Source: an uncultured Thiotrichaceae bacterium (GTDB lineage Bacteria > Pseudomonadota > Gammaproteobacteria > SZUA-229). From it: a stretch of DNA of 32,959 bases. The notes under the pieces were generated by a model. The model saw only the letters and a program-made list of their open reading frames with translations. It had not been told where the DNA came from and did not search any database. Location of the stretch: the NCBI GenBank assembly GCA_964646145.1, contig CAZYCY010000001.1, positions 1-32,959 on the forward strand, in the 5' to 3' direction. The position numbers and the translations under genes were made by a program. This document shows positions 1,085 through 16,995 of this stretch, in pieces. Position 1 is the stretch's first letter. Each line of letters opens with the position of its first letter.

Positions 1085-2332
1085 ATGAATCTAAAACGAA
1101 TACCTCCAGCAGCGATTATTGACAATCTCAACTATATTGGTAACCCATTTAAGAAAAAGAGCTTTTCGGCGGCACCATACTTATCGACTAAAATACGTGG
1201 TGTTGATGCAGATTTAGAATTCGTTCTTAAGTTTCTGTATAGCTACAATGGCAGCACTGCAACTTTTAATAGCTATCGACGTGATCTGGAAAGACTTCTT
1301 CAATGGTGCTGGCGAATCGAACAAACTTCCTTATTAAATCTTAAACGTGAACACATCGAAGAGTTTATTCTTTTTTGTTTTAATCCACCGAAAGCCTGGA
1401 TAGGTATAAAGAATGTGGCGCGATTTAAAAATCTAAATGGCACACGTAAAGCCAACGATGAATGGCGACCCTTTGTCGTATCCGTTGCGAAGTCTGAGCA
1501 TAGTAATAATAAGACAGCAGATATAAGTCACTTTTGTCTATCACAAGCTGCTATTAAAGCCATGTTTACCGCTTTGTCTTCTTTTTACGAATACCTGATA
1601 CAGGAAAACCTTGTTGAATCAAACCCTGTTGCTCTTATTAAACAGAAAAGTAAATTTATCCGTAAAGATCAGTTAAAACCTGTTGTGAGGCGCATCAGTA
1701 CGCTACAGTGGGATTACGTATTGGAAACGGCAGAGTTAATGGCGTCTAAGGATCCTGGAGTGCATGAACGTACCTTGTTCATCATGAACTGTTTGTTTGC
1801 AATGTATCTTCGCATTTCAGAACTGGTCGCTGATGAGCGCTCCGCGCCGATTATGAGTAATTTCAGAAAAGACCATGACAGCAACTGGTGGTTTGACGTT
1901 ATCGGTAAAGGCAATAAAAACCGTTCTATTACTGTGTGCAATGACATGCTCAATGCACTCAAACGATATCGTAACTATTTAGGTCTATCGGAATTACCTA
2001 ATTTAGGTGAGCAAATACCGCTTATCTCCAAGACGAAAGGCAAAGGTTCAATTACAAGCACTCGACAGATTAGAAGCATTGTACAACGGTGTTTCGATAC
2101 GACCTATGAGCGTATGAAGGCTGACGGTCTTAAAGATGATGCTATTGAGCTAAAATCAGCCACAGTTCACTGGCTAAGGCACACAGGAATATCAGAGGAC
2201 GTAAAGTTTCGACCGCGTGAACACGTTCGCGATGATGCTGGACACGCCAGCATGGCCACCACAGATCGTTACATTGACTCTGACTTGCGTGAAAGGCATG
2301 AATCTGGGCGAAAAAAGCGCGTAAAATCCTAG
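1085..2332 (+). CDS. Tyrosine site-specific recombinase / integrase
   Basis: 415 aa. SAM-like N-domain (TFNSYRRDLERLLQWC). Catalytic-domain motifs are LRISEL (Arg), HWLRHTG (H-x-x-R) and GHASMATTDRY (nucleophile Tyr). Confidence 0.85.
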   Translation: MNLKRIPPAAIIDNLNYIGNPFKKKSFSAAPYLSTKIRGVDADLEFVLKFLYSYNGSTATFNSYRRDLERLLQWCWRIEQTSLLNLKREHIEEFILFCFNPPKAWIGIKNVARFKNLNGTRKANDEWRPFVVSVAKSEHSNNKTADISHFCLSQAAIKAMFTALSSFYEYLIQENLVESNPVALIKQKSKFIRKDQLKPVVRRISTLQWDYVLETAELMASKDPGVHERTLFIMNCLFAMYLRISELVADERSAPIMSNFRKDHDSNWWFDVIGKGNKNRSITVCNDMLNALKRYRNYLGLSELPNLGEQIPLISKTKGKGSITSTRQIRSIVQRCFDTTYERMKADGLKDDAIELKSATVHWLRHTGISEDVKFRPREHVRDDAGHASMATTDRYIDSDLRERHESGRKKRVKS

Positions 2333-3482: not shown

Positions 3483-3831
3483 CTGCGGTAATCAATTATT
3501 GATAAAACTATTCTACAACTAATGTAAAAATTGTCATACTGAAAAATTAGAAAGGGAACTACGCCATTAAACTCGGATTACTTATAAGAGCCAATAATTT
3601 TAATCTGGCAGCAGAGACATTGTGCTGTAAAATAAGACCATGGGAAACTTCTTCAGCATCAGCCGTCAGCACGAGTCCGCACATGCGGTAATAAACAATT
3701 GTGTACAATAACTCGAAACCAGCCCTGCCGAGGTGAATTTTGGCTTCCTCTATGCCACTCGCAGTATGCTGTGAAGAATGAAACCCTCAACGATTAATCA
3801 GAGATTCGCTAAAATATAAAAGGAGATGCAA

Positions 3832-4005
3832 ATGAAGACCATCATTAAATCAATCATCGTAGTATTGCTAACGACTCTGTCAATAACAGGCTGTTCCAGC
3901 AGCCCCGCACCGTTTAATGATCCATACAACCAGGCTGATTCTCAGAGAGATAGGTCGAAGCAAGCACAGCATGAATTGTCCACAGAAACATCCCGAGAGA
4001 GGTAG
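3832..4005 (+). CDS. Small (57-aa) lipoprotein, below the ORF-track cutoff
   Basis: My own translation gives MKTIIKSIIVVLLTTLSITGCSSSP.... It has a hydrophobic signal plus lipobox L-S-I-T-G-C. SD AAGGAG lies 7 nt upstream of the ATG. Confidence 0.55.
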   Translation: MKTIIKSIIVVLLTTLSITGCSSSPAPFNDPYNQADSQRDRSKQAQHELSTETSRER

Positions 4006-4135
4006 TGAAACACTAGCCCCCGAAGCAGGGCAATGGCATTCACTTAACCCATCTTTCGATTTAGCAGAAAGCAATTATATAAAAAAAACAAATAGTTACT
4101 AAATTTATGGAGTCGGAGTTGGCACTACAGATTCC

Positions 4136-4270
4136 ATTGTTCCCACGCTGCTCCCGCGTAGGAATACAACCACTGACGCTCTGCGTCTCGTTACATGCAA
4201 AAAACACACAACATAAGCGATTCTTGACGCGGAGCGTCTGAAAATTCATTCCCACGCAGAGCGTGGGAAT
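4136..4270. repeat. Cluster of four REP-like hairpins (A-B...B-A arrangement)
   Basis: Hairpins: ttcccacgct/cgcgtaggaa (4140..4164, imperfect), gacgc-tct-gcgtc (4175..4187), gacgc-gga-gcgtc (4226..4238), attcccacgc-aga-gcgtgggaat (4248..4270, perfect 10-bp stem). Confidence 0.55.
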
Positions 4271-4409
4271 GATAAATCAGTGAGTTATATGAGGTGTTTT
4301 ATTTTTTGTTTTTGTTGGGTATGTGAATGTCATTGCTTGCCGGGACGGGAGTCTCACCCGCTGGAATTATCGACCTTGCTCGCCGCACACCCCAATTATC
4401 TCCTAGTTT

Positions 4410-4439
4410 CTGATACTTGCCCCACGCCTTTTATATAAT
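4410..4439 (+). promoter_or_regulatory. Candidate sigma70 promoter for the plus-strand trio
   Basis: CTGATA (4410..4415), 18-nt spacer, perfect TATAAT (4434..4439), about 60 nt upstream of the 4500 ATG. The -35 element is weak. Confidence 0.25.
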
Positions 4440-4499
4440 GCCGGTAACAAGCTCACAAGCCTTGCAACTTTCCTTGTTTTTCAATAAATTAACAAGATT

Positions 4500-6392
4500 A
4501 TGGACTTTAGTGAATATAAAGCACTCGTCACCTCAATACCTTGCGGGAAAAAACTACCCGACTCTATTTATATTCACGAATCCGCAATTGACATCCTGCC
4601 TAGACAACTAGGTGCTCATTTCGCACGTGTAATAATAGATCTCGATTTAGATGATAAAGATTGGAATATCCTTAAATTCTTTAAGCGAGACCATAAAGTT
4701 GCACTGTTAAATTATCCTGGCTTCTTTGATGACAGTTACCCTGCACTGTATACAAGCTATACAATTGATCTTGAAAAGAAAACCTTTAGAAAAGCTAACT
4801 ACAATAAATCTGACAATCCGCCAATTCTGCACAGAAAAGAAACATTTCTAAAACCTGACCATCCGCTTGTTGCAGAATTTATAGAAATAACGCAGGAAGG
4901 TGAAGCTATAGGTCTCTATGAAAAAACAAGCCGAATTGGCTTTAAACAAAATTGGGAAAGGTTAATAAAATCTAAAGGATACTTTCTTGATAAACATGGT
5001 CGATTAAAACCATTAACTGAGAAACCGTTAGCTCAAACAAAACCATCAGATTTAAATGGTGATGTAGAACGACATAAAACAGCTATTGACCGTAATCAGC
5101 TATCACAGCCTATGCAGGCATTGACCAGGCATAATTATTTAAATGATGATTATAGTGTTCTCGATTATGGCTGTGGTAAGGGTGATGATGTTAGGGAATT
5201 AAAGGCACATGGAATTGATGTCACTGGCTGGGACCCTGTTCATAATCCCAACGAAGAATACTCTAACCGAGATATAGTGAATCTCGGCTTTGTGTTAAAT
5301 GTAATTGAAGACCGACAGGAACGGACAGAAACACTTATCAATGCATGGAAACATGCGGATAAAATTTTAGTTGTGGCGGTTATGGTTGCAGGTGAAAACG
5401 TCATTAGTCAATTTACACCATACAAAGATGGCGTTATAACCAGCAGAAATACATTTCAAAAATACTACTCTCAAGGTGAAATCCGTTACTACATCGAGAA
5501 TTCACTTGATGAAACGGCTATTGCAGTAGGCCAGGGTGTTTTTCTGATATTTAAAGACAAGCTCGAAGAACAAGCCTTTTTATCAGAACGTCAGCATATC
5601 AAACGTGATTGGTCACAAAAAATACAGCGCCAACTAGCACTTAAACCTAAAGCAATCAGAAAAGATGTCATTGATAAACATATCGAACTATTTACTGACT
5701 ACTGGGAAACCTCACTTGAATTAGGACGAATACCAGCAAATAATGAATTTGAATTCTCTGATCAAATACGCCGCATCTGTGGCTCACATAACAAAGCCCA
5801 CCAGGCATTACTTAAACATTTTGGTGAAGAAGTATTTATTGAATCCAAAGAAAAACGTAGAGAAGATCTCATCGTCTATTTTGCCTTAAGTCTTTTTGAA
5901 AAAAGGAAACCTCAAAGTAAAATGCCAGAAAATCTAAAACGAGATATCAAAGCTTTTTTTTCTTCATATCAACAGGCATTAGAAGAAGCACGAGAAATAT
6001 TATTCTCTGTGGGCAACCCAGTAACAATTAGTGAGGCGTGCAATGTTGCTTATAAAACACTAGGCTGTGGTCACATGGAAGATAGTCATAGCTTTACGTT
6101 TCATAAAGACAATTTAGGCGACCTTCCACCGGTACTTCGCATATATGTTGGATGCGCCACGCAACTATATGGCGATATCGATAATTTTCAACTTATTAAA
6201 GTACATATAAGATCTGGAAAGGTTAGCTTAATGCGGTATGATGATTGGTCAAAAAATGAACCACTACTCCTTGAGCGTATAAAAATCAAACTTAGAGAAC
6301 TAGATATTGATTTTTTCGAATACACAGGTAAGTATTTACCTCCACCATTAACTAACAAGTCATCATTTTTAAGTGGCGCATCAGAAACCTAA
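4500..6392 (+). CDS. DNA-phosphorothioation-associated putative methyltransferase-like protein (630 aa, three-part architecture)
   Basis: Central class-I SAM-binding motif VLDYGCGKGDDV with a downstream DIVNLGFVLNVIED block. The N-terminal region (PPILHRKETFLKPDHP...GLYEKT) is as I remember for the TIGRFAM dnd-related methyltransferase family. A ~270-aa C-terminal extension has unknown function. Confidence 0.7.
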   Translation: MDFSEYKALVTSIPCGKKLPDSIYIHESAIDILPRQLGAHFARVIIDLDLDDKDWNILKFFKRDHKVALLNYPGFFDDSYPALYTSYTIDLEKKTFRKANYNKSDNPPILHRKETFLKPDHPLVAEFIEITQEGEAIGLYEKTSRIGFKQNWERLIKSKGYFLDKHGRLKPLTEKPLAQTKPSDLNGDVERHKTAIDRNQLSQPMQALTRHNYLNDDYSVLDYGCGKGDDVRELKAHGIDVTGWDPVHNPNEEYSNRDIVNLGFVLNVIEDRQERTETLINAWKHADKILVVAVMVAGENVISQFTPYKDGVITSRNTFQKYYSQGEIRYYIENSLDETAIAVGQGVFLIFKDKLEEQAFLSERQHIKRDWSQKIQRQLALKPKAIRKDVIDKHIELFTDYWETSLELGRIPANNEFEFSDQIRRICGSHNKAHQALLKHFGEEVFIESKEKRREDLIVYFALSLFEKRKPQSKMPENLKRDIKAFFSSYQQALEEAREILFSVGNPVTISEACNVAYKTLGCGHMEDSHSFTFHKDNLGDLPPVLRIYVGCATQLYGDIDNFQLIKVHIRSGKVSLMRYDDWSKNEPLLLERIKIKLRELDIDFFEYTGKYLPPPLTNKSSFLSGASET

Positions 6393-6402
6393 GGAACCTA
6401 AT

Positions 6403-7224
6403 ATGAATAGCAATGGAACAGCCACACCTAAAAATGTCAAAGTAGGTATGCATGTTGAAATTAACCCTCAAACGGACCGTACAAGAAAAAAAATAGCCCC
6501 AGGGATAATATCAGAAATTTTAACTAAATCAAATAATCACCCTCATGGTGTATTAGTTCTACTTGAATCTGGTGAGAAAGGCAGAGTAAAAGCGATACTT
6601 GACCAGAATGGTAAAAACCAACATGCTGAAAACAAAACTGATCTAAAGGAAGAAAAAAACACCACTACTCTTAAAGAATATATAGCTGAAGGAGAAAATC
6701 ATCATGTTGAATTTAAATCTGGTGCTTTATGGAGCACTAAGTTTACAAATAATGATATAAAGAAGTACAAACCTCAATCAAATGAACTTCATGCATATGG
6801 TCAAAGCACGTCAAAGATTATAATTTCTAAAACACTTGCAGGATTTTTAAACACAGATGGTGGTACATTAATAATTGGGTTAAAAGAAAATAAAAATAAT
6901 AATAAAGACGAAGTTATTGGTATTGAAGTGGAGTTCGATAATTTGAAAGATCAATGCCAGGATGGCTATAGAAGAATGTTAGTTGATTTAATTAAAGACT
7001 ACTTCCCTTCTGATGTTTTCAACCACCTTAATCAATACCTACAAATTAGGTTCGAAAAAGTAAGTGGTAAAGTTATCTGTGGTGTTACTGCTTCTAGATC
7101 TGATCAGAGAGTATTTCTGAAACTTAAAAATGCTGATCATTTCTACATTAGAACAGATGCTTCTACTAGGGAACTGCATGGAGAAGAAATTCTTGATTAC
7201 TGTTTAAAACGATTTAATAAATAA
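6403..7224 (+). CDS. YwbE-like (DUF2196) N-terminal domain fused to an AlbA_2 (Schlafen-type) nucleic-acid-binding domain
   Basis: N-terminus GMHVEINPQTDRTRKKIAPGIISEILTKSNNHPHGVLVLLESGEKGRVKAIL matches the YwbE pattern. C-terminus has EGENHHVEFKSG and LAGFLNTDGGTLIIGL, the AlbA_2 signature. I place the start at ATG 6403 (SD AAGGA at 6391..6395) rather than the track's GTG 6373. Confidence 0.7.
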   Translation: MNSNGTATPKNVKVGMHVEINPQTDRTRKKIAPGIISEILTKSNNHPHGVLVLLESGEKGRVKAILDQNGKNQHAENKTDLKEEKNTTTLKEYIAEGENHHVEFKSGALWSTKFTNNDIKKYKPQSNELHAYGQSTSKIIISKTLAGFLNTDGGTLIIGLKENKNNNKDEVIGIEVEFDNLKDQCQDGYRRMLVDLIKDYFPSDVFNHLNQYLQIRFEKVSGKVICGVTASRSDQRVFLKLKNADHFYIRTDASTRELHGEEILDYCLKRFNK

Positions 7225-7273
7225 TATTTTATATTTTTACTACTAAAGCAGTCCGAGAATACTAGAGAAGCAT

Positions 7274-8260
7274 ATGTTATACAGAAACGGTGAAAATCTA
7301 AAAGAAGAGCTCATAAGATTTTTATCTAATAAAAAAAATGTAACTATTTTTTCACCCTATATTAAAGCAACAACATTGAACAAGTTATTGGAATCCACAG
7401 GCTTTAATTGCGAACAAATTATTGTACGATGGGAACCTATGGACCTAGCTCTAGGGTCGTCAGATATAGAAGTTTATAAAATATGTAAAGAGAATAACAT
7501 TGCCTTGTACATGAATAATCGTATACATCTCAAACTCTTCACAAACAATTTTAATGATGCCTTATTAGGGTCAGCCAATATCTCAGAGCGTGCAATAAGT
7601 GACAACACAAATCATTTTAACTATGAGGTATGCACTTATGTTCAATCCATTGATAGAGATGATCGTTTATATCTTCATAAAATAATTCATGAAAGTATTT
7701 TAGTAACAGATGATATTTACGATGCTATTGAAGCTCAAATTCCTGATATTTCTCCAGATATAAAAAATAAAAAACTTAAACTTCCAGCATCTACTAACGC
7801 AACATCAGACTTTCTCATTACAAAGTTACCAATGATAGACAACCCTACTCTGTTTTGGGAATTGTATTCTGGAAAGTTAGATATTGAATCTGAAGAACAA
7901 GAAAACTGTCTCTGTCACGATCTATCACTTTATGAAATTAATACACTGGAATGTAATAAAAGAGAATTTTTTGAAATCTTATCCAGAAACTTCTTTAGCT
8001 TACCATTCATTAACGCTTTTTTAGAAGAAATAGATAAATCAAAACGTAACACAAGGAGTGGTGAAGCAAGGGATGGGTTACAATTTGGCGCTGTAAGGAA
8101 ATGGTTCTCTAATAATACGACTTCTGTACCATCACCCAGACCATTTGAATTAACAAAAAATGTACAAATACTTTATTCTTGGATAGAGCACTTATCTAAT
8201 GGGAAATACACCATCTCTATACCAGGATCGCATTCACAGATTATAAAAAAAACGTACTAG
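7274..8260 (+). CDS. Single-HKD phospholipase-D-superfamily (Nuc/BfiI-like) putative nuclease with an unknown C-terminal domain
   Basis: 328 aa. RIHLKLFTNNFNDALLGSANIS equals H-x-K-x4-(N instead of D)-x6-G-S-x-N. Residues ~150-328 carry no motif I recognise. Confidence 0.65.
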   Translation: MLYRNGENLKEELIRFLSNKKNVTIFSPYIKATTLNKLLESTGFNCEQIIVRWEPMDLALGSSDIEVYKICKENNIALYMNNRIHLKLFTNNFNDALLGSANISERAISDNTNHFNYEVCTYVQSIDRDDRLYLHKIIHESILVTDDIYDAIEAQIPDISPDIKNKKLKLPASTNATSDFLITKLPMIDNPTLFWELYSGKLDIESEEQENCLCHDLSLYEINTLECNKREFFEILSRNFFSLPFINAFLEEIDKSKRNTRSGEARDGLQFGAVRKWFSNNTTSVPSPRPFELTKNVQILYSWIEHLSNGKYTISIPGSHSQIIKKTY

Positions 8261-10032
8261 CAATCACCCACACCTAAAAAATCAGTTAAAACCTCACCCC
8301 ATCGCCGTCTAGCATTTTGGTATTGAGCCCTTGCGTTTGACGAACTTTCAGCTTCCATGCGAGACCACGCTGCTATAGCAAGCTCCAACATTCCTTGTTG
8401 CTCTTCACCAACCTCATGAATTATTTTCCCATAAAAAGGGTGATTCTTATTGATCTGAACTAATGTAAAACCATTCTGACTTGTCACATCAAAAAAAGCT
8501 GAGGAATCAAAAGCAAGTTCTTCAATTTTATATCTTAAACCACTTTGCAAGATTTCTTCTGGTGTAGGCATAGACTCTCTTTGTTTATCACCATGGCCAT
8601 GCTCAAGTACAGATTTTATATCATCTAATGTTGGTACCGTGTCGTCTGAAGATATAGGGTTCTTATCTGCTCTAGCAGAGTCTGCTTCAGTAGCTGCATT
8701 TTCAACAGAACTACCACCATCGCCTCCCTGCTTTTCTTTGGAAAAATTTGAGAAGTCGAGAAGATTCAATGGTTTTCTCAATGAATCAATTACAAAACCA
8801 ACCTTATTTATTATCTTAAAAAGATGTATTTTAGGATCATTATTAAATTTCAAATCATCCTCATATTCTCCTACTGACAAGCCTTCTCTTTCTGCTTCTT
8901 CATCTTTTTGTAAATTATAAAAATTCACAGCTGACTGTTTATTATTTAGCACACCGAAGACTATATCTAATGCTGGAGGAAATGACACTTCAATTGAAAT
9001 AAACCTACCTTTATCCCTAAGTTCAGTAATAAAAAATCCAGCATCCTTGAGCTCTAACTCTCTATTAGATCTAACAATTGACAGTCCAAAATTAGTCGCA
9101 GCGTGTTTTCCCCAGACAGTTCCTCCTGGTCTTTGCTTCGCTTCCTCCCTTATTCTTTTAAAAATTAATGGGTTAACTACAGAGCCTTTTATCTTCACTT
9201 CATGCATCCCATTATTAAATTCAATTTTAATGGTTTCTTCTTTTTCTAGATTGAAAAATGGCTCGTTTTCATAAGGATGTGGAAGCTTTGAAAGTGATGT
9301 ATTCGTTAAAAGATACATCGGGTCGTTTGCTTTAAACTTTTTAGGATTATCTTCTAGTTTATAAACATTATCAATTTCTAAAAATCGGTCGAACCATATA
9401 GTGGCATCGCCGCTGTCTAGGTAATATCTATACATGCGCCCTATTAACGCTTCAGAGTGCTTGTATATTGACGCGCTTGTTTTCCACTGTAAGCGATCTA
9501 AATTACTCCATAATATAAAAGTTCCACTTTTAGAAAGCTTATCTCCTAGCGTTTCCAAAATAGCAGAGGGAATTTCGTTTGTTTTTGGTTTTGGAATGCT
9601 TTCAAGGTTACCATTCATCATTTCATTAATATCTAGGTACGTATAGAAGATTTCGTCTACGTTTATCCACGACCACACTTCTACTTTTGTACATTGTGAT
9701 ATTGATGAATTTGGTAATCCCATGCCAAATTTACCCATACCTTCTTTATCTGTATGATTTTCTCCTGCACCAAACTCCAACGCTTTATAAAGCTGATCAG
9801 GACTCATTCCTGAGCCGTTATCTAGAATGCCTATTTTATCTATTAATTTTAATGCTCGTTGTTTATTAGCCTTTGATACAGTCTCATAACATATGAGTCT
9901 TACTATTTCTGCACCTGCTTGAATGCTATTATCGATCAACTCCGCTATTGCATATGCTGCATTTTTATAGCCATTATCACGTAATGATTCTATTACTACC
10001 TGACCACTTATAAATGGGCGTGAATTTGTCAT
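8257..10032 (-). CDS. GHKL-superfamily (HATPase_c_3 / MORC-like) ATPase
   Basis: 591 aa. N-box AELIDNSIQAGA, G1 box LDNGSGMS, G2 box GKFGMGLPNSS. It lies 20 nt downstream of the helicase gene on the same strand. Confidence 0.8.
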   Translation of the reverse strand: MTNSRPFISGQVVIESLRDNGYKNAAYAIAELIDNSIQAGAEIVRLICYETVSKANKQRALKLIDKIGILDNGSGMSPDQLYKALEFGAGENHTDKEGMGKFGMGLPNSSISQCTKVEVWSWINVDEIFYTYLDINEMMNGNLESIPKPKTNEIPSAILETLGDKLSKSGTFILWSNLDRLQWKTSASIYKHSEALIGRMYRYYLDSGDATIWFDRFLEIDNVYKLEDNPKKFKANDPMYLLTNTSLSKLPHPYENEPFFNLEKEETIKIEFNNGMHEVKIKGSVVNPLIFKRIREEAKQRPGGTVWGKHAATNFGLSIVRSNRELELKDAGFFITELRDKGRFISIEVSFPPALDIVFGVLNNKQSAVNFYNLQKDEEAEREGLSVGEYEDDLKFNNDPKIHLFKIINKVGFVIDSLRKPLNLLDFSNFSKEKQGGDGGSSVENAATEADSARADKNPISSDDTVPTLDDIKSVLEHGHGDKQRESMPTPEEILQSGLRYKIEELAFDSSAFFDVTSQNGFTLVQINKNHPFYGKIIHEVGEEQQGMLELAIAAWSRMEAESSSNARAQYQNARRRWGEVLTDFLGVGDC

Positions 10033-10052
10033 TTTTTATCCATATTATTCAA

Positions 10053-11683: not shown

Positions 11684-12541
11684 TTATAAACTACAAATCA
11701 AACAAGCTTGATCTTCAGGGTCTTCATCATCTTCTTGATGCCTTAACACATCCTGCCATCTTTCAGTTTTTTTACTTGTTTTATTAATGTCTGTTTTCTC
11801 TCTCAACTCTGCTCTTTTAACAAGCTCATCTAAAGACCCTTGAGAGCTCCAGGTATACCCATGACCACCAAATTCCACCTCACCCTCTTTCCAGTCGAAT
11901 TTCGTTCGTATTTTATTCTCAAATTCTTTTGCTTTCTCAAATAATTCAGGATGGTTTCGTTTAAGACCTAACCATTCTTTTTGCTGTTGGAAAAAGCAGA
12001 AATAACAACCAGATCGTGATCGCCATTTATAGTATTTTGGAATGCCAACTGTATCTTCAAGCATCTGGAATATATCATCACGTACTAGACCATCTTCTAC
12101 AAAAGGGAAAACTGCTTTTATTGTTGGTTTTTGACTAATGTAACCTTCTCGATTTTCATCTGCACGTATGCCGACATAAGTAATAACAAAGTCATCCCCT
12201 ACAAATTCCTCAAAGGGTTTAATTTTCATCATTCGAGTACACCATCTTTGCTGTGGTGATGGCAAGTATTCATTATGAACCTTTAGCCAATGCTCAAATG
12301 GTTTTCCACTACTGAGTCTTATAATCTCTTTACCTAAATATGCTTCAAGCTTTGCTAGAAATTCATATACCTCATCTAATTCAGCGCCCGTATCAGTAAA
12401 GAAGTATTCAACCTTTTCATGAACGTCAGGATGTTGTTCTTTGATATAAATAGCTAAGGCTGCACTATCTTTACCACCAGATATTCCTAAAACATGTCGA
12501 TATTGATTATCGTTTATATACTTTTTATAATTCTGGCTCAT
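11684..12541 (-). CDS. sspD: SspD-like PP-loop ATP pyrophosphatase (PAPS-reductase family)
   Basis: 285 aa. PP-loop ISGGKDSAA. Cys pairs SGCYFCFF and C-terminal CLICSL. Its short length fits SspD rather than ~500-aa DndC. It follows sspC after 6 nt. Confidence 0.8.
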   Translation of the reverse strand: MSQNYKKYINDNQYRHVLGISGGKDSAALAIYIKEQHPDVHEKVEYFFTDTGAELDEVYEFLAKLEAYLGKEIIRLSSGKPFEHWLKVHNEYLPSPQQRWCTRMMKIKPFEEFVGDDFVITYVGIRADENREGYISQKPTIKAVFPFVEDGLVRDDIFQMLEDTVGIPKYYKWRSRSGCYFCFFQQQKEWLGLKRNHPELFEKAKEFENKIRTKFDWKEGEVEFGGHGYTWSSQGSLDELVKRAELREKTDINKTSKKTERWQDVLRHQEDDEDPEDQACLICSL

Positions 12542-12547
12542 ATCTTG

Positions 12548-15500
12548 TTACCTACTAACTAATGATTTTGATTGTAGTTTTTCAGGTTTATTTTTTTGAG
12601 TAACTTGTTCTCCCCTGTATTCAGTTAAAAACTTATTAACAGATTCTGCTAATACAGCCAGCATGATTTCTTTATCTGGAAGTTCTTTAAGTACGTCTGA
12701 TATGTCTTTATTAGCCTTATTTCTCAGCTTAATACTTTCTTGGTCTGCGATAGCAATTTCATCTTGAATTGCTCCACCCTTTTTAATGCTACGCAGCAAA
12801 TATACATCAAAGTCACCATTTTTCTTTATCGCACAATCTTTTTCATGTAGCCTAAGTTTTTCTAGATCAATTATACGTTGCGAAAAATCTGCTAAACGAT
12901 ATTCAGCTGTATCTTGATCGCTATCTAACCATTTTTTAGATGGCTTATTACCTAAGAACATAAGTATATTTTCGAACCATTCTTCATCTGTACTAGAGGA
13001 TTTAATTATTCGCATGATAAATGCACGCAAGCCTTGCATATCAATTGTGTAGTTTTCTAAACCATAACAATTTCCTGCCAGTCTTTTTCTAATATCTCCT
13101 AACGACAGCTTAGAATTTATGTTAAATGCATGTGCAATCAGCTCTTTTTGTTTATTTAAAAGATTGTGATATGAATCTTTTAACTCCTTCAGTGTTTCAG
13201 TCAAGGTTTGTGAAAACTCCTCCAGTTTATTGTTACTCAAGCTTGAATTAATAACATTGAAACCAAGTTTTTCTGGCAACTGTTCAAATAATAATATTTC
13301 AGGAGACTTCGCTAAATCAAAAGCGGCTCTTACTTTTATAGCTTTTTGAGATAACCCTCTTCTAGTCTTTTGTGTATATTCAGGTAACTTTCCCATAAAT
13401 ACTGCAAGTGGTCTGGCTAATTCCAGCAGAGTGCGTTTTTTGCTATCCCCATGTAAAACTTTTGAATATTGTTTAAATATTGAAGCGCGTAATCCAGTTA
13501 TTCGAAACCGCTGAATCTCAAACTCATCAGGCCGTTTAACAAAACGCTCAATCATCTCTTCAGTAAAATATGGTTTATACCTTCCTTGTTCGTAAACCGC
13601 GAGTTCGTGCTGATAGACTAAATAGGCTGTTATATAAAAAACGGGTAATAAACCGGCTTTAACACCATAGGGCGGCGCTAATAATTCGGCATTTAATTGG
13701 GTAAAAGATTTAGCTTGTTTTTCAGTGCTATCAAGAAACTCGTCAATACATTGCCAGACATGACGAAGATTTGATTTTTTATCTTTTCTACCATCTGTTG
13801 GTGGCGCACAAAGATTCCATGTTTCGTCGCCATCCGTTATTTTATCAATTATTAACTGATGCAAACCTGTTTCGCGTAATACAGATCGGTACATTGATTT
13901 TTCAGCGGGGAATTTTTCTATACCTAAATCTGCTTTTGTTGCATGGTTTTGCATTGCATATAACAGCTTGTTACGCGCAGCATTGGCTTGTGCAGAAGGT
14001 TTATCTCGGTTGATCAGTTCATTAAAGACTTTCGGCATTTTGTTATAGACTTTACCAAGAACGCTTGAAAGCATTTCTTGCATGGTTCGCTTACTGGTTA
14101 TTTCTAATTTTTTTCCGCTGTGATACCAAATGCTATCAGCGGGTGAATCGATCAAACTTTTTAATAGTTTACCTTCTGCTTGTTCTGCAGCCGTTAACCG
14201 ATCTTCAAATTCACGCTTAGCGACTGGGTCGCTATTGAGCTCCTGGCTATTTATTCTGACGCGATTTAACGCTATGGTTTCCGCTACGGCTTCCCTTAAC
14301 TGCGCTCCATTAAGACTTAAAGCGGTTATATCCAGATTTGAGAAATAGTTAATTACATCTGTATGAAATATTTTCTCGTCATCCTGGTCTGCCGCCAGGT
14401 AGAAGATGATGCGTGCATCTTTACTTTGTTTTTCTGTCGTTTTGTAATTTTTTGCATCAACAAAAACAGGCACAAAATACCTTAATGCACCTGTTTGAAT
14501 GGTGTATTTACGAGCAACAACTGGCAGCATGTTTTTGGCTGTATTCAATTCTGCTGCCAGGGAGAACTGACCGATATTATTTATTTCTTCCTGCAATGCC
14601 TCTTCTAGATCAAAATCACTGCCCTGCCATACGCGGTATTCGTTGTTAAAGCGTCGATAATTGATGATGGATTTATCTTGCAGTGCTTTGATTGCGTTCC
14701 TTGCTGTTATTTTCTTAGGTAAGCAGGTTTCCAGTATGGCTTTAGATGCTTTAAAACCACCTTTGCTACCGATAATATTTAGGATGCCAATGGTTTTGAG
14801 AATATTAACTTCGTCTTCGCATGCATCACCTAGACGCTCAATAGCGGTTACTACTTCTGCCCAGCGCCGATGGGTTAAATAGTCACCTAATACTGATGGT
14901 TGGTTAGTAATAAAATAATCGTAGATATGATGTGGGTAAACATAATCTCCAAAGTTATCCATCTCATGCAGCATATGCTGTAAGCCAAACTCTTCATGAC
15001 TACCAAGATAGCTAAATATGGTGCGCTCGTTTTGCGCTACTTTCTGGCAGAGTAATGGCAATATAAGCGCACTAACGGGATGCAATGGATAACAGTTTGA
15101 ATACAGTTCCACTGCCTCGTCAAATTTCAACGCACTGGGCATGGCTTGTTGTTTGACTAATACATCGACTACTTTTGTAGTTATATTTGTCAGCGTATTT
15201 TTTTGTTGTTTAGTAAGGTTAAATTCAAATGCTGCTGATACAACACGTAATATTTGTTCGGCAGATTCCAGAAAAGGCACTTCTTCAAAACGCCCCTGCA
15301 CTTTAGACCATTCATTTTTTAGATTTTCACCTAGACCTTTTGCGTATTGCTCAAATGATTGATGCAGTAGTACAAATAAGAAAAGATTAACCTTACTGCC
15401 TTTACAGGCATGTTCAGCAAGTGCCTGTAATAAATATATATCGTTAGCACCGTAATGGCGTGCTTCGTATTCTAAAAATTTGCCAAGTTCATCTATTACT

Positions 15501-16072
15501 AATAGTATGCCTTTGCAGTGTGTTTTTTCTAGAAGCAGTTGAAGTTTTATAAACAGTTGTATCAGTTCATTTGATGAAACATTACTTGTTGCAGCTTGCT
15601 TTATTTCTTTAATGATTTTTGGTTTTCTACTTGGTATGTTTTCCCAATATGCCTCTGCTGCATCGGCTAAACCTTTAACCAATCTCTTTGACAATGATTC
15701 AGGTGAACCAGTAATGAGAACTTTTAAATAGCCCTGATTTTTATTGGTTTGGTTGCAGAATTTTTTCGCTAATAATTCATCTGCCTTTTTTAGTACTTGC
15801 TGTGCTGCTTGCGAGCCTTCTTCAGAAGGGTTAGATAATAGTTGCGATAAAAATACTGAAAAAGAGGATTTACCTGAACCGTATGGGCCGATTAAAGACC
15901 AGGCTCTAGGTGATAGGCCAGTATTAAACGCATCAGACACACGTGCAAAGGTTCTAAGTGCCCTGGACGTAGGGATGTATGCATTAATAACATCAACTGA
16001 ACCAGCATCCCGTTCGAGGTTAATTGAACGAGTGTAGTGTGTATTGACTGTAACGAGATTATTTATGTTCAT
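12548..16072 (-). CDS. sspC: SspC-like large P-loop ATPase
   Basis: 1174 aa. Walker A GPYGSGKSS, Walker B LLVIDELGKF. Its start overlaps the sspB stop by 4 nt (ATGA type). Confidence 0.75.
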   Translation of the reverse strand: MNINNLVTVNTHYTRSINLERDAGSVDVINAYIPTSRALRTFARVSDAFNTGLSPRAWSLIGPYGSGKSSFSVFLSQLLSNPSEEGSQAAQQVLKKADELLAKKFCNQTNKNQGYLKVLITGSPESLSKRLVKGLADAAEAYWENIPSRKPKIIKEIKQAATSNVSSNELIQLFIKLQLLLEKTHCKGILLVIDELGKFLEYEARHYGANDIYLLQALAEHACKGSKVNLFLFVLLHQSFEQYAKGLGENLKNEWSKVQGRFEEVPFLESAEQILRVVSAAFEFNLTKQQKNTLTNITTKVVDVLVKQQAMPSALKFDEAVELYSNCYPLHPVSALILPLLCQKVAQNERTIFSYLGSHEEFGLQHMLHEMDNFGDYVYPHHIYDYFITNQPSVLGDYLTHRRWAEVVTAIERLGDACEDEVNILKTIGILNIIGSKGGFKASKAILETCLPKKITARNAIKALQDKSIINYRRFNNEYRVWQGSDFDLEEALQEEINNIGQFSLAAELNTAKNMLPVVARKYTIQTGALRYFVPVFVDAKNYKTTEKQSKDARIIFYLAADQDDEKIFHTDVINYFSNLDITALSLNGAQLREAVAETIALNRVRINSQELNSDPVAKREFEDRLTAAEQAEGKLLKSLIDSPADSIWYHSGKKLEITSKRTMQEMLSSVLGKVYNKMPKVFNELINRDKPSAQANAARNKLLYAMQNHATKADLGIEKFPAEKSMYRSVLRETGLHQLIIDKITDGDETWNLCAPPTDGRKDKKSNLRHVWQCIDEFLDSTEKQAKSFTQLNAELLAPPYGVKAGLLPVFYITAYLVYQHELAVYEQGRYKPYFTEEMIERFVKRPDEFEIQRFRITGLRASIFKQYSKVLHGDSKKRTLLELARPLAVFMGKLPEYTQKTRRGLSQKAIKVRAAFDLAKSPEILLFEQLPEKLGFNVINSSLSNNKLEEFSQTLTETLKELKDSYHNLLNKQKELIAHAFNINSKLSLGDIRKRLAGNCYGLENYTIDMQGLRAFIMRIIKSSSTDEEWFENILMFLGNKPSKKWLDSDQDTAEYRLADFSQRIIDLEKLRLHEKDCAIKKNGDFDVYLLRSIKKGGAIQDEIAIADQESIKLRNKANKDISDVLKELPDKEIMLAVLAESVNKFLTEYRGEQVTQKNKPEKLQSKSLVSR

Positions 16073-16995
16073 GCGGCTATACCTTTCTCTAAGTCCATAT
16101 AATATTTTTTAATATAAGATAGCGGTTCTATTTCATTGGTTCGATACAATTGATGTATGCCCGCTGTTTCTCGTATATCAAAATGTCCGGGGATATAATT
16201 CACCATTAATTCTAGTTTGGTAATTAAGTCTGTTTCCGTTAACCTGAAAACGGAACCTGGTGCTGCATAGTCGTTTCGGCTATACATGAGTTCTTCAATG
16301 GCTATGGTCATAATATTTCTCTGCTGCATTAATTGAGATACCGCAAAAGAAAATATTCCGACTGGCAAGCCTGATCTTGCTTCTGGTTTTGACTGGTATG
16401 TTCGAGCACTCGAAAACTGTGTGACCAGACCAAGTAAAGATAGTGGTGAGTCTAACGCTTCTTCCAACGCTATACGGGCGTTAGCTTTTGACTGCGTATA
16501 CATACGTGGCAGTAATAAGGCATCATTTTTAATGGTATTCGCTGAGGGCCGACGTTTTTCTACGACACGCTCTTTAATAAAGTCGATAAGTGCTGTTTGT
16601 AATTCTTCAGCGGTAAATTCTGGTTTGTGAAATTTATTAAAAAACCAAAACCACGATGTTGCCATTGCTGAGTTAGTGACTAATAACCAGTGTACTAACC
16701 AAATAGTCGCTTCATCTTCTAAATAAGGGTCTAAGCCAGTTTTTGCATCAAAGACTAAATTACCAATTGGTTCTGCAACCTCTGGTTTTTGAGAGCTTAT
16801 TAACTGGCATGCTCTTAACCAGTAGCGTATTGACGACACCATGTTACGACCGACTCCAAGCACAACCACAGAATCGTCATCTTCAAATACACCCGGTTTT
16901 TGTTTTAAGGCATGGAAACCTTTAGATAGCCAGCTATAGCGAAGTGCAAATGTTTCGTGCCGACCGAATGCAACGGTATCGCTTTTAAATTTCAT
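16069..16995 (-). CDS. sspB: SspB-like DUF4007 protein (PT-system nickase family)
   Basis: 308 aa. The N-terminus FGRHETFALRYSWLSKGF is the hallmark DUF4007 block. Its ATG directly abuts the stop of the upstream RHH gene (TAAATG). Confidence 0.8.
   Translation of the reverse strand: MKFKSDTVAFGRHETFALRYSWLSKGFHALKQKPGVFEDDDSVVVLGVGRNMVSSIRYWLRACQLISSQKPEVAEPIGNLVFDAKTGLDPYLEDEATIWLVHWLLVTNSAMATSWFWFFNKFHKPEFTAEELQTALIDFIKERVVEKRRPSANTIKNDALLLPRMYTQSKANARIALEEALDSPLSLLGLVTQFSSARTYQSKPEARSGLPVGIFSFAVSQLMQQRNIMTIAIEELMYSRNDYAAPGSVFRLTETDLITKLELMVNYIPGHFDIRETAGIHQLYRTNEIEPLSYIKKYYMDLEKGIAA

What the first reader, a model, noticed from the sequence alone, without database searches (positions are those of the whole stretch)
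4500..8260. Convergent three-gene operon (MTase-like, YwbE::AlbA_2, PLD-like) as a possible undescribed module
Seen: three plus-strand genes are tightly packed. The stop of gene 1 lies 11 nt before the ATG of gene 2, and a 49-nt gap separates genes 2 and 3. They run head-on into the ssp operon. Gene 1 has a bona fide SAM motif (VLDYGCGKGDDV) flanked by ~200-aa N-terminal and ~270-aa C-terminal regions of unknown function. Gene 2 is a domain fusion treated in a separate finding. Gene 3 is a single-HKD PLD with H-x-K-x4-N instead of D. Established: the MTase-like family was defined only by genomic association with dnd clusters, and as far as I know it has no demonstrated substrate. Inference: the trio could be a second self/non-self layer, with a methyl mark or a small-molecule or nucleic-acid modifier, a sensor and a nuclease. 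It could equally be an independent defence system that co-localises with Ssp.
Basis: partly seen in the sequence, partly recalled or inferred. Interest (0 to 1): 0.8.

Follow-up and report, generated by a model that had tools for sequence, protein, structure and literature searches.

The report
Undescribed effector cassette of Ssp defence
The three genes are real and co-transcribed, but they are not a module of their own: the PLD nuclease and its small partner belong with the neighbouring helicase and GHKL ATPase as an apparently undescribed restriction cassette of the phosphorothioate (Ssp) DNA-marking defence system, and the methyltransferase-like gene is a general companion of such marking systems.

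Summary
Three tightly packed plus-strand genes sit at 4500-6392, 6403-7224 and 7274-8260, and they run into the minus-strand sspBCD-helicase-GHKL operon. The stop codons of gene 3 and the GHKL gene share one CTAG.

In about 45 related loci from six or more phyla:

- **Gene 3** is a single-HKD PLD nuclease with a C-terminal helical domain. It lies within a few kb of an SF2 helicase gene in every locus that extends far enough. A MORC-like GHKL ATPase gene is there too, except in one Dnd-linked locus. PT-modification genes (sspBCD, once dndBCDE) are present whenever the contig is long enough. Often all of these form one operon.
- **Gene 2** (DUF2196+AlbA_2) always accompanies this PLD, but its slot is variable.
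- **Gene 1** (TIGR04096) is a much larger family. It also sits beside sspFGH-type and dnd loci, occurs alone on plasmids, and is found in a megaphage.

The contiguous trio is therefore the gene order of one clade. The evolutionary unit is SspBCD + helicase + GHKL + PLD (± gene 2). It resembles a split SauUSI/PbeA-type ATP-dependent endonuclease. I found no paper that describes it. About 14 of 98 SspB-bearing plasmids carry it. I rate it a new variant of a known kind, of moderate to high interest.

The parts
4410..4439 (+). Best sigma-70-like promoter match upstream of gene 1 (CTGATA-18-TATAAT)
   Evidence: The number of such matches in the region is not above the shuffled expectation, so this is only a candidate.
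4500..6392 (+). Gene 1: PT-associated methyltransferase-like protein (TIGR04096 family), 630 aa. Layout: N-terminal beta-rich 'X' domain, class I SAM-MTase core, helical region, then a degenerate second X copy.
   Evidence: (621.7 bits, cut-off 150)
4500..5024 (+). Gene 1 residues 1-175: uncharacterised 'X' domain with invariant N106-P-P108-I-L-H-R-K113. It has no Pfam or PDB relative. Elsewhere it occurs as a stand-alone gene (L046, megaphage L050).
   Evidence: (pLDDT about 88)
5055..5579 (+). Gene 1 residues about 186-360: class I SAM-dependent methyltransferase core. Motif I is D222-Y-G-C-G-K-G228, with acidic D245 and N261/E270 invariant.
   Evidence: Methyltransf_23; only small-molecule and RNA MTases are matched
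6177..6374 (+). Gene 1 residues about 560-625: degenerate, truncated second copy of the X domain. Longer homologues keep D/N-PP-I-L-H-x-K here.
   Evidence: alignment of 14 homologues; jackhmmer: MT_N and MT_C profiles cross-hit
6403..7224 (+). Gene 2: DUF2196 (YwbE-like, residues 8-65) fused to a Schlafen-type AlbA_2 domain (residues 98-258). This is the variable accessory slot of the effector cassette.
   Evidence: (E98, E103, K105, N150, G153, G154 invariant)
7274..8260 (+). Gene 3: single-HKD PLD-fold nuclease (residues 1 to about 160) plus a conserved C-terminal helical, probably winged-helix, domain (about 170-328).
   Evidence: pLDDT 85; SauUSI, BfiI, Zucchini, Nuc, NucT
7526..7579 (+). 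HKD motif of gene 3: H85-L-K87-LFTN-N92-FNDALL-G99-S100-A-N102
8257..10032 (-). MORC-like GHKL ATPase (HATPase_c_3, residues 26-154; N-box ELIDNS, G1 DNGSGM, G2 GKFGMG). It is the constant partner of the PLD and helicase genes.
   Evidence: MzaB 1e-15; 70.4 bits
10053..11663 (-). SF2 helicase/translocase (ResIII + Helicase_C; GAGKT, DEAH). Its closest solved relatives are RadD and the helicase domain of the restriction enzyme SauUSI.
   Evidence: (PbeA 1.5e-24, type IV REase 2e-18)
11684..12541 (-). sspD (PAPS-reductase-like PT-modification enzyme)
   Evidence: (SspD 7e-104)
12548..16072 (-). sspC (BrxC-like ATPase of the PT-modification module)
   Evidence: SspC, E = 0
16069..16995 (-). sspB (DUF4007)
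   Evidence: 2.4e-87; 266 bits

Best explanation
Positions 4.3-17.0 kb of the window are one low-GC defence island. It encodes a phosphorothioate (Ssp-type) restriction-modification system with a restriction cassette that, as far as I can find, has not been described.

**Modification side.** SspB, SspC and SspD write PT marks on host DNA, presumably with a housekeeping cysteine desulfurase, because no sspA is present in the window.

**Effector side.** The effector is a three-protein machine split across the two convergent operons: the SF2 helicase/translocase, the MORC-like GHKL ATPase and the gene 3 PLD nuclease. The helicase and PLD together correspond to a split version of HKD-nuclease + SF2-helicase restriction enzymes such as SauUSI or PbeA.

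**Inferred mechanism.** The helicase loads on or translocates along DNA that lacks the PT pattern. A single-HKD PLD must dimerise to form an active site. ATP-driven dimerisation of the GHKL clamp is a plausible switch that brings two PLD subunits together to cut.

**Gene 2 (DUF2196+AlbA_2).** This is a clade-variable accessory that always sits with this PLD. It is a likely adaptor or nucleic-acid sensor, or a back-up Schlafen-type nuclease.

**Gene 1.** This is not specific to the cassette. It is a general companion of PT-modification modules (Ssp with either effector type, and Dnd). It is a SAM-dependent enzyme of small-molecule/RNA-MTase type, flanked by two copies of a novel domain. It most likely acts on, or regulates, the modification side.

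**What is shown and what is inferred.** The domain identities, the conserved catalytic motifs and the gene linkage are shown. PT dependence, the cleavage mechanism and the substrate of gene 1 are inferred.
For: **Linkage of the PLD.**
- GHKL is adjacent in all 14 metagenome or genome loci with sequence beyond the PLD gene. A helicase follows wherever the contig continues.
- All 10 plasmid records with a PLD homologue (22-25% identity) hold these genes next to DUF4007/SspC/PAPS-reductase/cysteine desulfurase, most in the order helicase, GHKL, PLD.
- Searching with GHKL gives the same picture for Hymenobacter and Rhodobacteraceae SC52. GHKL homologues at 26% identity or less lie outside Ssp loci.
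- The cassette lies inside the ssp operon in Trichormus variabilis ATCC 29413 (between sspD and sspA), Treponema, Pleomorphomonas, Pannonibacter and Hymenobacter.

**Fold and motifs.**
- The PLD model has pLDDT 85, and its best PDB matches are SauUSI, BfiI, Zucchini, Nuc and NucT.
- The helicase's second-best solved relative by sequence is the SauUSI helicase domain, at 4.5e-14.
- H85, K87 and N102 are invariant. Walker A, DEAH and the GHKL boxes are intact.

**Gene 2.** All four sampled distant homologues, and every other locus that has a gene 2 homologue, carry the PLD within 5 kb.

**Gene 1.**
- It has more than 6,200 homologues, against 58 for the PLD with the same tool.
- It is found after sspH in one operon (Azospirillum, Methylobacterium), convergent to sspFGH (L023, L024), upstream of dndBCDE (Pseudoalteromonas), next to sspA (SC52, L002), directly after sspD (L046 as a split gene, L053, L054), and alone (Piscinibacter, Picosynechococcus).

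**Frequency.** About 14 of 98 plasmid records with an SspB homologue carry the helicase-GHKL cassette.

**Literature.** SspFGH is defined by a Walker-A protein and an FtsK-like SspH. A 2021 survey found 83.9% of sspBCD loci without a known effector (PMC8092258).
Against: - There is no experimental evidence of any kind. PT dependence is inferred from linkage alone.
- Comparative-genomic work has argued that DndFGH, long taken as PT-dependent, is a standalone system (PMC10853773). The same could be true here.
- In the window the PLD gene is on the opposite strand from the helicase and GHKL genes and collides with them head-on, which is unusual for subunits of one complex.
- Pfam's PLDc_2 match is below the gathering score (18.6 against 27).
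- The window's clade has N instead of D in the HKD motif.
- One locus (Aminobacter MSH1) has a different third gene, and one (L049, Dnd-linked) lacks the GHKL.
- The sampling of loci was anchored on the genes themselves, and the plasmid gene tables are incomplete.
- My literature search covers open-access papers and bioRxiv only.
Confidence: 0.7

Rival explanations
1. One reading: MTase-like + DUF2196/AlbA_2 + PLD form a self-contained second self/non-self layer (methyl mark, sensor, nuclease) that is separable from sspBCD + helicase + GHKL.
For: - The three genes form one operon here and keep this order in 10 loci.
- SAM-binding residues are invariant.
- Solitary copies of gene 1 on plasmids, and X-domain plus MT-core genes in a megaphage, look like what orphan protective methylases do.
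Against: - The PLD is found with helicase + GHKL and without any MTase-like or DUF2196 gene in many distant loci.
- Gene 2 is missing (L010, L016) or replaced (L001, L013, L025).
- Gene 1 accompanies sspFGH and dnd systems that have no PLD.
- The MTase core matches only small-molecule and RNA MTases, not DNA MTases.
Confidence: 0.08
2. Helicase + GHKL + PLD (± gene 2) is an autonomous anti-phage system, a split SauUSI-like ATP-dependent nuclease. It merely hitch-hikes with PT-modification genes and does not read PT.
For: - Defence genes cluster in islands.
- An analogous decoupling has been argued for DndFGH (PMC10853773).
- PLD, gene 2 and helicase also occur beside dndBCDE rather than ssp in L049.
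- The cassette sits in variable orientation relative to sspBCD.
Against: - Every PLD, gene 2 or close GHKL homologue with enough flanking DNA lies next to PT-modification genes.
- The cassette is often embedded between sspD and sspA in one operon.
- No locus without PT genes was found in about 45 inspected.
Confidence: 0.15
3. Gene 1 is a true modification enzyme that adds a second mark, for example methylation of a base, of the PT sulfur or of a DNA end. PT-linked effectors read this mark, and phages copy the enzyme to escape.
For: - The SAM motifs are invariant.
- Two flanking copies of a conserved domain and a weak match (below Pfam's threshold) to a homing-endonuclease-associated helical repeat suggest nucleic-acid binding.
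- Stand-alone copies occur on mobile elements, and split copies in an uncultured 485-kb phage.
- An unrelated small class I MTase is embedded between sspC and sspD in a Micavibrio MAG, so an MTase appears to have been recruited independently.
Against: - The MTase core has no (D/N/S)PP(Y/F/W) or cytosine-C5 motif.
- Its structural neighbours are small-molecule, tRNA and Hen1-type enzymes, with weak E-values of 2e-3 or higher.
- About half of the helicase-GHKL-PLD loci lack the gene within 10 kb.
- pLDDT is below 50 over the motif I region of the model.
Confidence: 0.2
4. The trio is a decaying or non-functional remnant next to a functional Ssp system.
For: In the Nitrosopumilus MAG locus the MTase-like gene survives only as a frameshifted remnant. 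The window's PLD has N for D in the HKD motif.
Against: - All three ORFs are intact.
- They are 60-88% identical to homologues in other phyla, with catalytic residues conserved.
- The gene order is conserved in 10 loci.
Confidence: 0.03

Closest known systems
SspABCD-SspE and SspABCD-SspFGH (PT-based defence; Xiong 2020, from memory; Wang 2021, PMC8092258)
   Same: The modification module is the same (SspB, SspC and SspD hit the PADLOC models). The logic is also the same: a variable effector cassette sits next to sspBCD. As in V. anguillarum FF-93, no sspA is present in the island.
   Different: The effector proteins are unrelated. There is no SspE hit. There is no Walker-A SspF and no FtsK-like SspH, both of which are present in L023, L024, Azospirillum and Methylobacterium. 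Here the effector is SF2 helicase + GHKL + PLD.
SauUSI (type IV ATP-dependent restriction enzyme, PDB 7CLG) and PbeA / 'HKD + SF2 helicase' of the CxC-ABC (Pbe) systems
   Same: A PLD/HKD nuclease combined with an SF2 helicase. SauUSI is the best structural match of gene 3 and the second-best sequence match of the helicase. PbeA is the best PADLOC hit of the helicase.
   Different: Here the nuclease and the helicase are separate genes. There is no SRA-like target-recognition domain. A GHKL ATPase is added. The PLD carries its own C-terminal domain. The partner modification is Ssp-type PT, not cytosine methylation or DndCDE-Pbe.
DISARM (DrmA helicase, DrmB, DrmC PLD nuclease, methylase)
   Same: A multi-gene system with a helicase, a stand-alone PLD nuclease and a modification enzyme. 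DrmC is the only PADLOC hit of gene 3 (E = 8.6e-4).
   Different: There is no DUF1998 (DrmB) and no YprA-type helicase. The hit is marginal. The modification is PT.
Prokaryotic MORC/GHKL defence proteins (for example MzaB of the Mza system)
   Same: The N-terminal HATPase_c_3 module.
   Different: Only the ATPase head aligns (residues 11-240). The score is far below the MzaB family cut-off (60 against 850 bits). The partner genes are different.
TIGR04096 'DNA phosphorothioation-associated putative methyltransferase'
   Same: Gene 1 is a clear member (621.7 bits against 150).
   Different: The model starts at residue 189, so the conserved N-terminal X domain is not part of it. No function has been published for the family in the searchable literature.

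Membership tests
SspFGH effector module | A three-gene cassette next to sspBCD with a Walker-A protein (SspF) and a very large SspH that has an FtsK/SpoIIIE-like C-terminus (PMC8092258) | tested here: not met
   None of the window proteins has an FtsK_SpoIIIE domain. Genuine sspFGH loci (L023, L024, L029, L040) show 1,760-1,785-aa FtsK_SpoIIIE proteins.
SspE effector | Sequence match to SspE (a PT-sensing NTPase with a nicking nuclease domain) | tested here: not met
   No window protein in the island was reported as matching an SspE model in the PADLOC scan. That PADLOC holds an SspE model is my recollection.
Ssp modification module (SspBCD) | DUF4007 SspB, BrxC-like SspC and PAPS-reductase-like SspD in one operon | tested here: met
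   PADLOC gives SspB 2.4e-87, SspC E = 0 and SspD 7e-104. Pfam gives DUF4007 and PAPS_reduct.
Ssp modification module (SspBCD) | PT modification of DNA (d(CpsC) at CCA sites) | not testable with these tools
   Needs LC-MS/MS of genomic DNA.
TIGR04096 (PT-associated putative methyltransferase) | Score above the curated cut-off on the NCBIfam model | tested here: met
   621.7 bits against 150.
TIGR04096 (PT-associated putative methyltransferase) | Genomic association with PT-modification genes | tested here: met
   The gene lies next to ssp or dnd genes in the window, L002, L006, L015-L017, L023-L025, L027-L030, L040, L045, L046, L053 and L054. It is solitary in L039 and L041.
DNA (amino or C5) methyltransferases | Catalytic motif IV, (D/N/S)PP(Y/F/W), or the PC(Q) motif of C5 MTases within the Rossmann fold, with structural similarity to DNA MTases | tested here: not met
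   The region after strand 4 reads DIVNLGFVLNVIED. The only NPP motif (NPPILH) lies in the separate N-terminal domain. Foldseek returns only small-molecule, tRNA and Hen1-type MTases.
Class I SAM-dependent methyltransferase fold | Motif I, (D/E)xGxGxG, plus an acidic residue at the end of strand 2 | tested here: met
   D222, G224, G226, G228 and D245 are invariant in 14 homologues. Methyltransf_23 scores 29.9 bits against 27. SAM binding itself was not tested.
PLD/HKD nuclease superfamily (Nuc, BfiI, Zucchini, SauUSI N-domain) | The HxK(x)4D(x)6G(S/T)xN motif | tested here: inconclusive
   H85, K87, G99, S100 and N102 are present and conserved. The D position is N92 in this clade and D in distant homologues. 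Pfam PLDc_2 is below its cut-off (18.6 against 27).
PLD/HKD nuclease superfamily (Nuc, BfiI, Zucchini, SauUSI N-domain) | PLD fold | tested here: met
   The AlphaFold model has pLDDT 85. Foldseek gives probability 1.00 to SauUSI, BfiI, Zucchini, Nuc and NucT.
SauUSI / PbeA-type restriction enzymes | HKD nuclease and SF2 helicase in one polypeptide with a C-terminal target-recognition domain | tested here: not met
   The nuclease (7274-8260, +) and the helicase (10053-11663, -) are separate genes. No SRA or DUF3427 domain is present.
Schlafen/AlbA_2 and DUF2196 (YwbE) domains | Pfam matches above the gathering score | tested here: met
   DUF2196 scores 53.6 against 25. SLFN_AlbA_2 scores 45.1 against 25.3. 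The E-x4-E-F-K signature is invariant. The stand-alone YwbE equivalog TIGR03833 is below its cut-off (55.9 against 63.4).
DISARM | DrmA (YprA-type helicase), DrmB (DUF1998) and DrmC (PLD) | tested here: not met
   Only a marginal DrmC hit for gene 3 (8.6e-4). There are no DrmA or DrmB hits.

The most novel reading that the evidence does not exclude
SspBCD + SF2 helicase + MORC-like GHKL ATPase + PLD/winged-helix nuclease (± DUF2196-AlbA_2) is a third, mechanistically distinct class of PT-coupled restriction machinery. It accounts for a sizeable share of the 'orphan' sspBCD loci. In it, ATP-driven GHKL dimerisation assembles the composite active site of a single-HKD nuclease on DNA that lacks the PT pattern. 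In addition, the widespread TIGR04096 protein performs a so far unknown SAM-dependent reaction on PT-DNA, for example at the sulfur. Phages have copied this protein as a counter-measure.
Probability: 0.4. Interest if true: 0.8.

Novelty: new variant of a known kind. Interest (0 to 1): 0.62.

Why it matters
A 2021 survey found that 84% of sspBCD loci lack a known restriction partner (PMC8092258). It asked whether further partners exist. The helicase-GHKL-PLD cassette defined here by comparative genomics is a concrete and testable candidate. It occurs in Pseudomonadota, Cyanobacteriota (including the model strain Anabaena/Trichormus variabilis ATCC 29413), Bacteroidota, Spirochaetota, a Chlorobiota MAG and a Nitrosopumilus MAG.

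It would add a GHKL-dependent, split SauUSI-like nuclease to the repertoire of PT-based immunity. It would also improve defence-system annotation tools, which currently call these loci modification-only.

The TIGR04096 protein has more than 6,000 homologues, no known substrate, a novel duplicated domain and phage-borne copies. It is an open biochemical question in its own right.

Tried and rejected
1. **Identity with SspFGH.** My first guess. Rejected after reading the paper and seeing true sspFGH loci.
2. **PADLOC.** No hits for genes 1 and 2, and only a marginal DrmC hit for gene 3.
3. **PDB sequence searches with genes 1-3.** These gave only motif-level or no matches.
4. **Related-loci scan with the diverse PLD alignment A1.** It failed for lack of a conserved stretch. 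The narrower A2 found only 3 genome loci and 14 metagenome loci, so those counts are lower bounds.
5. **Pfam at E up to 10 on the N- and C-terminal parts of gene 1 and the C-terminal domain of gene 3.** Nothing except a weak HNH_repeat match.
6. **Profile search of the X domain against PDB and Pfam.** Nothing credible.
7. **Foldseek with the whole gene 1 model.** It only saw the MTase core.
8. **The 168-aa and 213-aa proteins inside the Micavibrio ssp operon (L048).** I tested whether they are a split gene 1. They are not: hhalign probability 1.5%, and BLASTP matches motif I only.
9. **Organism identification via cluster names.** No names are held for these proteins.
10. **Local signals.** Promoter and terminator scans are not above chance. 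No tRNA gene marks the island boundary.
11. **Literature.** Searches for the cassette combining SspABCD or SspBCD with GHKL, helicase, PLD or DUF2196 returned nothing relevant. Two Aravind/Krishnan comparative papers cover Dnd and BREX but not this cassette.

Full report
**1. Observation**

The window contains three plus-strand ORFs at 4500-6392 (630 aa), 6403-7224 (273 aa from the ATG) and 7274-8260 (328 aa). On the minus strand, running towards them, lie a 591-aa, a 536-aa, a 285-aa, a 1174-aa and a 308-aa ORF.

The gaps between the plus-strand genes are 10 nt and 49 nt. The stop codon of gene 3 (TAG 8258-8260) and that of the 591-aa gene (8257-8259 on the other strand) share one CTAG. The two transcription units therefore collide with no terminator between them. 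An independent gene call on a Logan contig of the same DNA gives identical products.

The segment from about 4.3 to 17 kb has 31-40% G+C, against 42-46% for the flanking mutS, NAD-kinase and recN genes and for the aldo-keto reductase side. A tyrosine recombinase gene lies at 1085-2332.

PADLOC identifies the last three minus-strand genes as SspD, SspC and SspB. The 536-aa protein is an SF2 helicase (ResIII, Helicase_C). The 591-aa protein is a HATPase_c_3 (MORC-like GHKL) ATPase.

- The SAM motif I is present and invariant in the family.
- Gene 2 is DUF2196 + AlbA_2.
- Gene 3 has HxKx4N...GSxN.

**2. It is not SspFGH**

My first guess was that the trio is SspFGH. That cassette is defined by a Walker-A protein and an SspH with an FtsK/SpoIIIE-like C-terminus (PMC8092258). 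Genuine examples that I later met have 1,760-1,785-aa FtsK_SpoIIIE proteins. Nothing like that is in the window. PADLOC has no model that matches genes 1 or 2. Only a marginal DrmC hit appears for gene 3.

**3. Who travels with whom**

*Gene 3.* The word-indexed search finds only 58 homologues of gene 3. An exhaustive profile search finds 373 clusters (at 50% identity) at E ≤ 1e-30, nearly all matching over the full two-domain length.

I collected loci through exact look-ups, a genome scan and a metagenome scan. I annotated them with tblastn and jackhmmer, using the window's proteins as queries.

- In all 14 such loci that extend beyond the PLD gene, the next gene is the GHKL ATPase. The helicase follows wherever the contig continues.
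- sspBCD is present whenever about 10 kb is available (L001, L002, L004/L008, L006, L015, L016, L017).

Independent sampling from annotated plasmids gives the same result at 22-25% identity. All 10 records with a PLD homologue hold these genes, most in the order DEAD/DEAH helicase, 'ATP-binding protein', PLD. They lie next to DUF4007, the large SspC-like ATPase, the PAPS-reductase-like SspD and a cysteine desulfurase. The hosts are Treponema saccharophilum, Trichormus variabilis ATCC 29413 and 0441, Pleomorphomonas, Mesorhizobium, Planktothrix, Cyanobacterium HL-69, Roseobacter, Geminocystis and Pannonibacter.

In Trichormus, Treponema, Pleomorphomonas and Pannonibacter, and in Hymenobacter (found through the GHKL protein), the three genes sit in the same operon as the ssp genes. 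In Trichormus they lie between sspD and sspA.

GHKL homologues with about 27% identity or more lie in Ssp loci in every case inspected. Those at 26% or less (Leisingera, Roseivivax) do not.

Of 98 plasmid records with an SspB homologue, about 14 carry this cassette. For comparison, the 2021 genome survey found about 7% each for SspE and SspFGH.

*Gene 2.* The DUF2196+AlbA_2 fusion has 155 homologues. Four distant members on long contigs all lie within 5 kb of a PLD of this family. Three are in Ssp + helicase + GHKL loci (two Roseobacter-group genomes and a Micavibrio MAG). One is in a dndBCDE locus, as PLD, gene 2, helicase with no GHKL.

The slot is variable:
- DUF2196 alone, 68 aa, in L013.
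- DUF2196 fused to a PLD-fold MIT_C domain in L001.
- Nothing in L010 and L016.
- A NERD-kinase-TCAD9 protein in L025.
- A DUF2779 protein in Planktothrix.
- No such gene in most plasmid loci.

*Gene 1.* The same search tool returns more than 6,200 homologues. The gene sits in the following places:
- Convergent to sspBCD-sspFGH in Pleionea litopenaei and another genome.
- Last gene of an sspCD-sspFGH operon in Azospirillum and Methylobacterium plasmids.
- Directly upstream of dndBCDE in Pseudoalteromonas.
- Next to sspA in Rhodobacteraceae SC52 and L002.
- Divergent from sspB in Trichormus.
- Directly after sspD in two IMG/VR contigs.
- Split in two genes in L046, where the 167-aa product matches the N-terminal domain with hhalign probability 99.95%.
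- Alone on plasmids of Piscinibacter and Picosynechococcus.
- About half of the helicase-GHKL-PLD loci have no copy within 10 kb.

In short, gene 1 is a companion of PT-modification modules in general. This is what its TIGR04096 name says.

*Conclusion on linkage.* The contiguous trio (MT, gene 2, PLD) is confined to the window's clade: 10 loci with PLD identity of about 60% or more. L017 has the MT gene inverted, and L010 and L016 lack gene 2. The conserved unit across phyla is PT modification + helicase + GHKL + PLD.

**4. What the proteins look like**

*Gene 3.* The AlphaFold model has mean pLDDT 85.3 and pTM 0.82. Its N-terminal 160 residues match PLD-fold nucleases: SauUSI (best), BfiI, Zucchini, Nuc and NucT, all with probability 1.00.

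Residues 170-328 form a conserved helical domain that ends in helix-helix-strand-strand, probably a winged helix. Its conserved residues are H215, D216, F271, G272 and W277. It has no match in Pfam.

The N for D in the HKD motif is a feature of this clade. Distant members have D. Catalytic H and K are invariant.

*Helicase.* Its best solved relatives by sequence are RadD (1e-20) and the helicase domain of the same SauUSI entry, 7CLG (4.5e-14). Its best PADLOC hits are PbeA and type IV restriction enzymes. PbeA is the HKD + SF2 helicase protein of the Pbe/CxC systems (PMC10853773).

Two independent lines therefore point to a split SauUSI/PbeA-like ATP-dependent endonuclease.

*GHKL protein.* It has intact N, G1 and G2 boxes. 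It resembles MORC and MzaB only in the ATPase head.

*Gene 2.* It keeps the E-x4-E-F-K signature and the N-x-x-G-G motif of Schlafen-type AlbA_2 domains invariantly.

*Gene 1.* The model has mean pLDDT 76. It is good for residues 1-170 and 390-620, and poor around motif I.
- The core matches only small-molecule, tRNA-wobble and Hen1-type class I methyltransferases, with weak E-values of 2e-3 or higher. It matches no DNA methyltransferase.
- There is no (D/N/S)PP(Y/F/W) motif in the Rossmann fold.
- An alignment of 14 homologues down to 31% identity shows an N-terminal beta-rich domain with an invariant N-P-P-I-L-H-R-K. This domain is repeated, degenerate and truncated, at the C-terminus.
- It has no relative in Pfam or the PDB.

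**5. Mechanism proposed**

Shown: the domain identities, the intact catalytic motifs and the tight, phylum-spanning linkage.

Inferred:
- SspBCD with IscS marks host DNA.
- The helicase/translocase, the GHKL ATPase and the PLD nuclease form the restriction activity against DNA without the PT pattern.
- A single-HKD PLD needs a second subunit to complete its active site, as in Nuc and BfiI (established knowledge). GHKL ATPases dimerise on ATP binding. GHKL-driven pairing of two PLD subunits is therefore an attractive licensing step.
- Gene 2 may tether the PLD, because DUF2196 always lies next to a PLD-fold gene and is once fused to a PLD-fold MIT_C domain. It may instead act as a nucleic-acid sensor or as a back-up nuclease. 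Schlafen-type RNases have been proposed as back-up effectors in BREX loci (PMC12839542).
- Gene 1 most likely acts on the modification side, as a regulator or a secondary modifier.

I cannot tell whether PT inhibits the effector (classical R-M logic) or stimulates it (as for SspE).

**6. Rivals**

- An autonomous helicase-GHKL-PLD system that merely co-localises with PT genes cannot be excluded without experiments. It is disfavoured because no PT-free occurrence was seen and because the cassette is often embedded in the operon.
- A protective-mark role for gene 1 gains some support from stand-alone copies on mobile elements. An uncultured 485-kb phage encodes a separate X-domain ORF and an MT-core ORF about 0.4 kb apart. 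An unrelated small MTase is embedded in the Micavibrio ssp operon. This role is compatible with my main explanation.

**7. Novelty**

The searchable literature (PMC open access and bioRxiv) holds no paper that combines Ssp with this cassette. An August 2025 research paper and a February 2026 review list only SspE and SspFGH as Ssp effectors. Two large comparative-genomic papers on Dnd and BREX do not cover it. Only one paper uses the TIGR04096 name, and only as an annotation.

I therefore rate the locus as a new variant of a known kind: PT-based restriction-modification with a new effector cassette. The specific claim of a three-gene module is not upheld.

Caveats:
- All evidence is computational.
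- Subscription-journal papers could not be searched.
- Locus sampling was anchored on the genes of interest.

Noticed in passing
L050 3977-4549 and 4991-5668 (uncultured phage LR745208.1, 485 kb): A megaphage encodes a stand-alone homologue of the gene 1 N-terminal 'X' domain (35% identity, E = 5e-26). About 0.4 kb downstream lies a separate ORF that matches the gene 1 MTase core. No PT genes lie in the 8.6 kb inspected. This may be a counter-defence or a protective-modification gene pair.
   Followed up: partly
IMG/VR contigs L051-L057: Seven viral or proviral contigs carry the NPPILHRK domain. L053 and L054 carry sspB-sspC-sspD-MT on one strand, and L053 also has helicase, GHKL and PLD. The others have solitary MT or X-domain genes.
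   Followed up: partly
window 4500-5024 and 6177-6374: Gene 1 contains an internal duplication. The N-terminal beta-rich domain (invariant NPPILHRK) recurs in degenerate, truncated form at the C-terminus. Longer homologues keep a complete second copy. The domain has no Pfam or PDB relative.
   Followed up: yes
L048 7997-9141 (Micavibrio MAG JBKBNU010000002.1): An unrelated small class I methyltransferase (213 aa; Methyltransf_23/11/25, TehB-like) and a 168-aa protein are embedded between sspC and sspD. This appears to be a second, independent recruitment of an MTase into an Ssp modification operon.
   Followed up: partly
L049 (FLOH01001257.1) 3799-15090: PLD, DUF2196-AlbA_2 and a helicase lie divergent from dndBCDE instead of ssp. 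There is no GHKL gene. A ParB_N-like protein and a 397-aa protein follow instead. The PLD, gene 2 and helicase set therefore also pairs with double-strand PT systems.
   Followed up: no
L045 11817-12449 and L046 12711-13313: A PC4-like (ssDNA-binding) protein is encoded between the GHKL and helicase genes in two alphaproteobacterial variants of the cassette. This fits the single-strand character of Ssp PT marks.
   Followed up: no
L027 17616-19922; L037 2994-5330; L036 9887-11140; L002 11202-13481: Many helicase-GHKL-PLD loci carry an additional DndB-like/DGQHR protein, about 760 aa in three of them and about 420 aa in L036. It sits in the ssp operon, downstream of sspD, next to a small hypothetical protein. 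The window lacks both.
   Followed up: no
L025 11871-14261: In one close relative of the window's system the gene 2 position is taken by a 796-aa NERD + protein kinase + TCAD9 protein. The diverged PLD lies in the same operon as sspDC-helicase-GHKL.
   Followed up: no
window 17292-17582: The sspB-mutS intergenic region holds a perfect 9-bp tandem repeat (AGGATGGAG x 4.9, 17487-17530) and a 33-bp repeat x 2 (17419-17485). Both are bracketed by 24-nt inverted repeats (17292-17315 and 17559-17582, 92% complementary). This may be a small insertion element or a regulatory structure upstream of mutS.
   Followed up: no
window 4249-4269 (related half-site near 4141): A perfect hairpin, TTCCCACGC-AGA-GCGTGGGAA, lies in the 500-bp non-coding stretch upstream of gene 1, at the left edge of the low-GC island. 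It resembles a REP element.
   Followed up: no
window 514-2332: A ParA-like ORF (514-933, minus strand; possibly truncated, domains not checked) and a 415-aa ORF with a weak phage-integrase N-terminal (SAM-like) domain match (1085-2332), read here as a tyrosine recombinase, lie left of the island. No tRNA gene is in the window, so the insertion site of the island is undefined.
   Followed up: partly
window 1-32959: No cysteine desulfurase (sspA/iscS) is encoded in or next to the island, among the ORFs I annotated. This differs from most related loci and resembles V. anguillarum FF-93, which uses the housekeeping IscS.
   Followed up: partly
L004/L008 342-714 (Nitrosopumilus MAG JACERO010000107.1): An archaeal MAG contig carries the cassette: the PLD is 66% identical, and helicase, GHKL and sspBCD are present. 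Only a frameshifted remnant of the MTase-like gene survives, and there is no gene 2. This points to recent inter-domain transfer or to a binning artefact.
   Followed up: no
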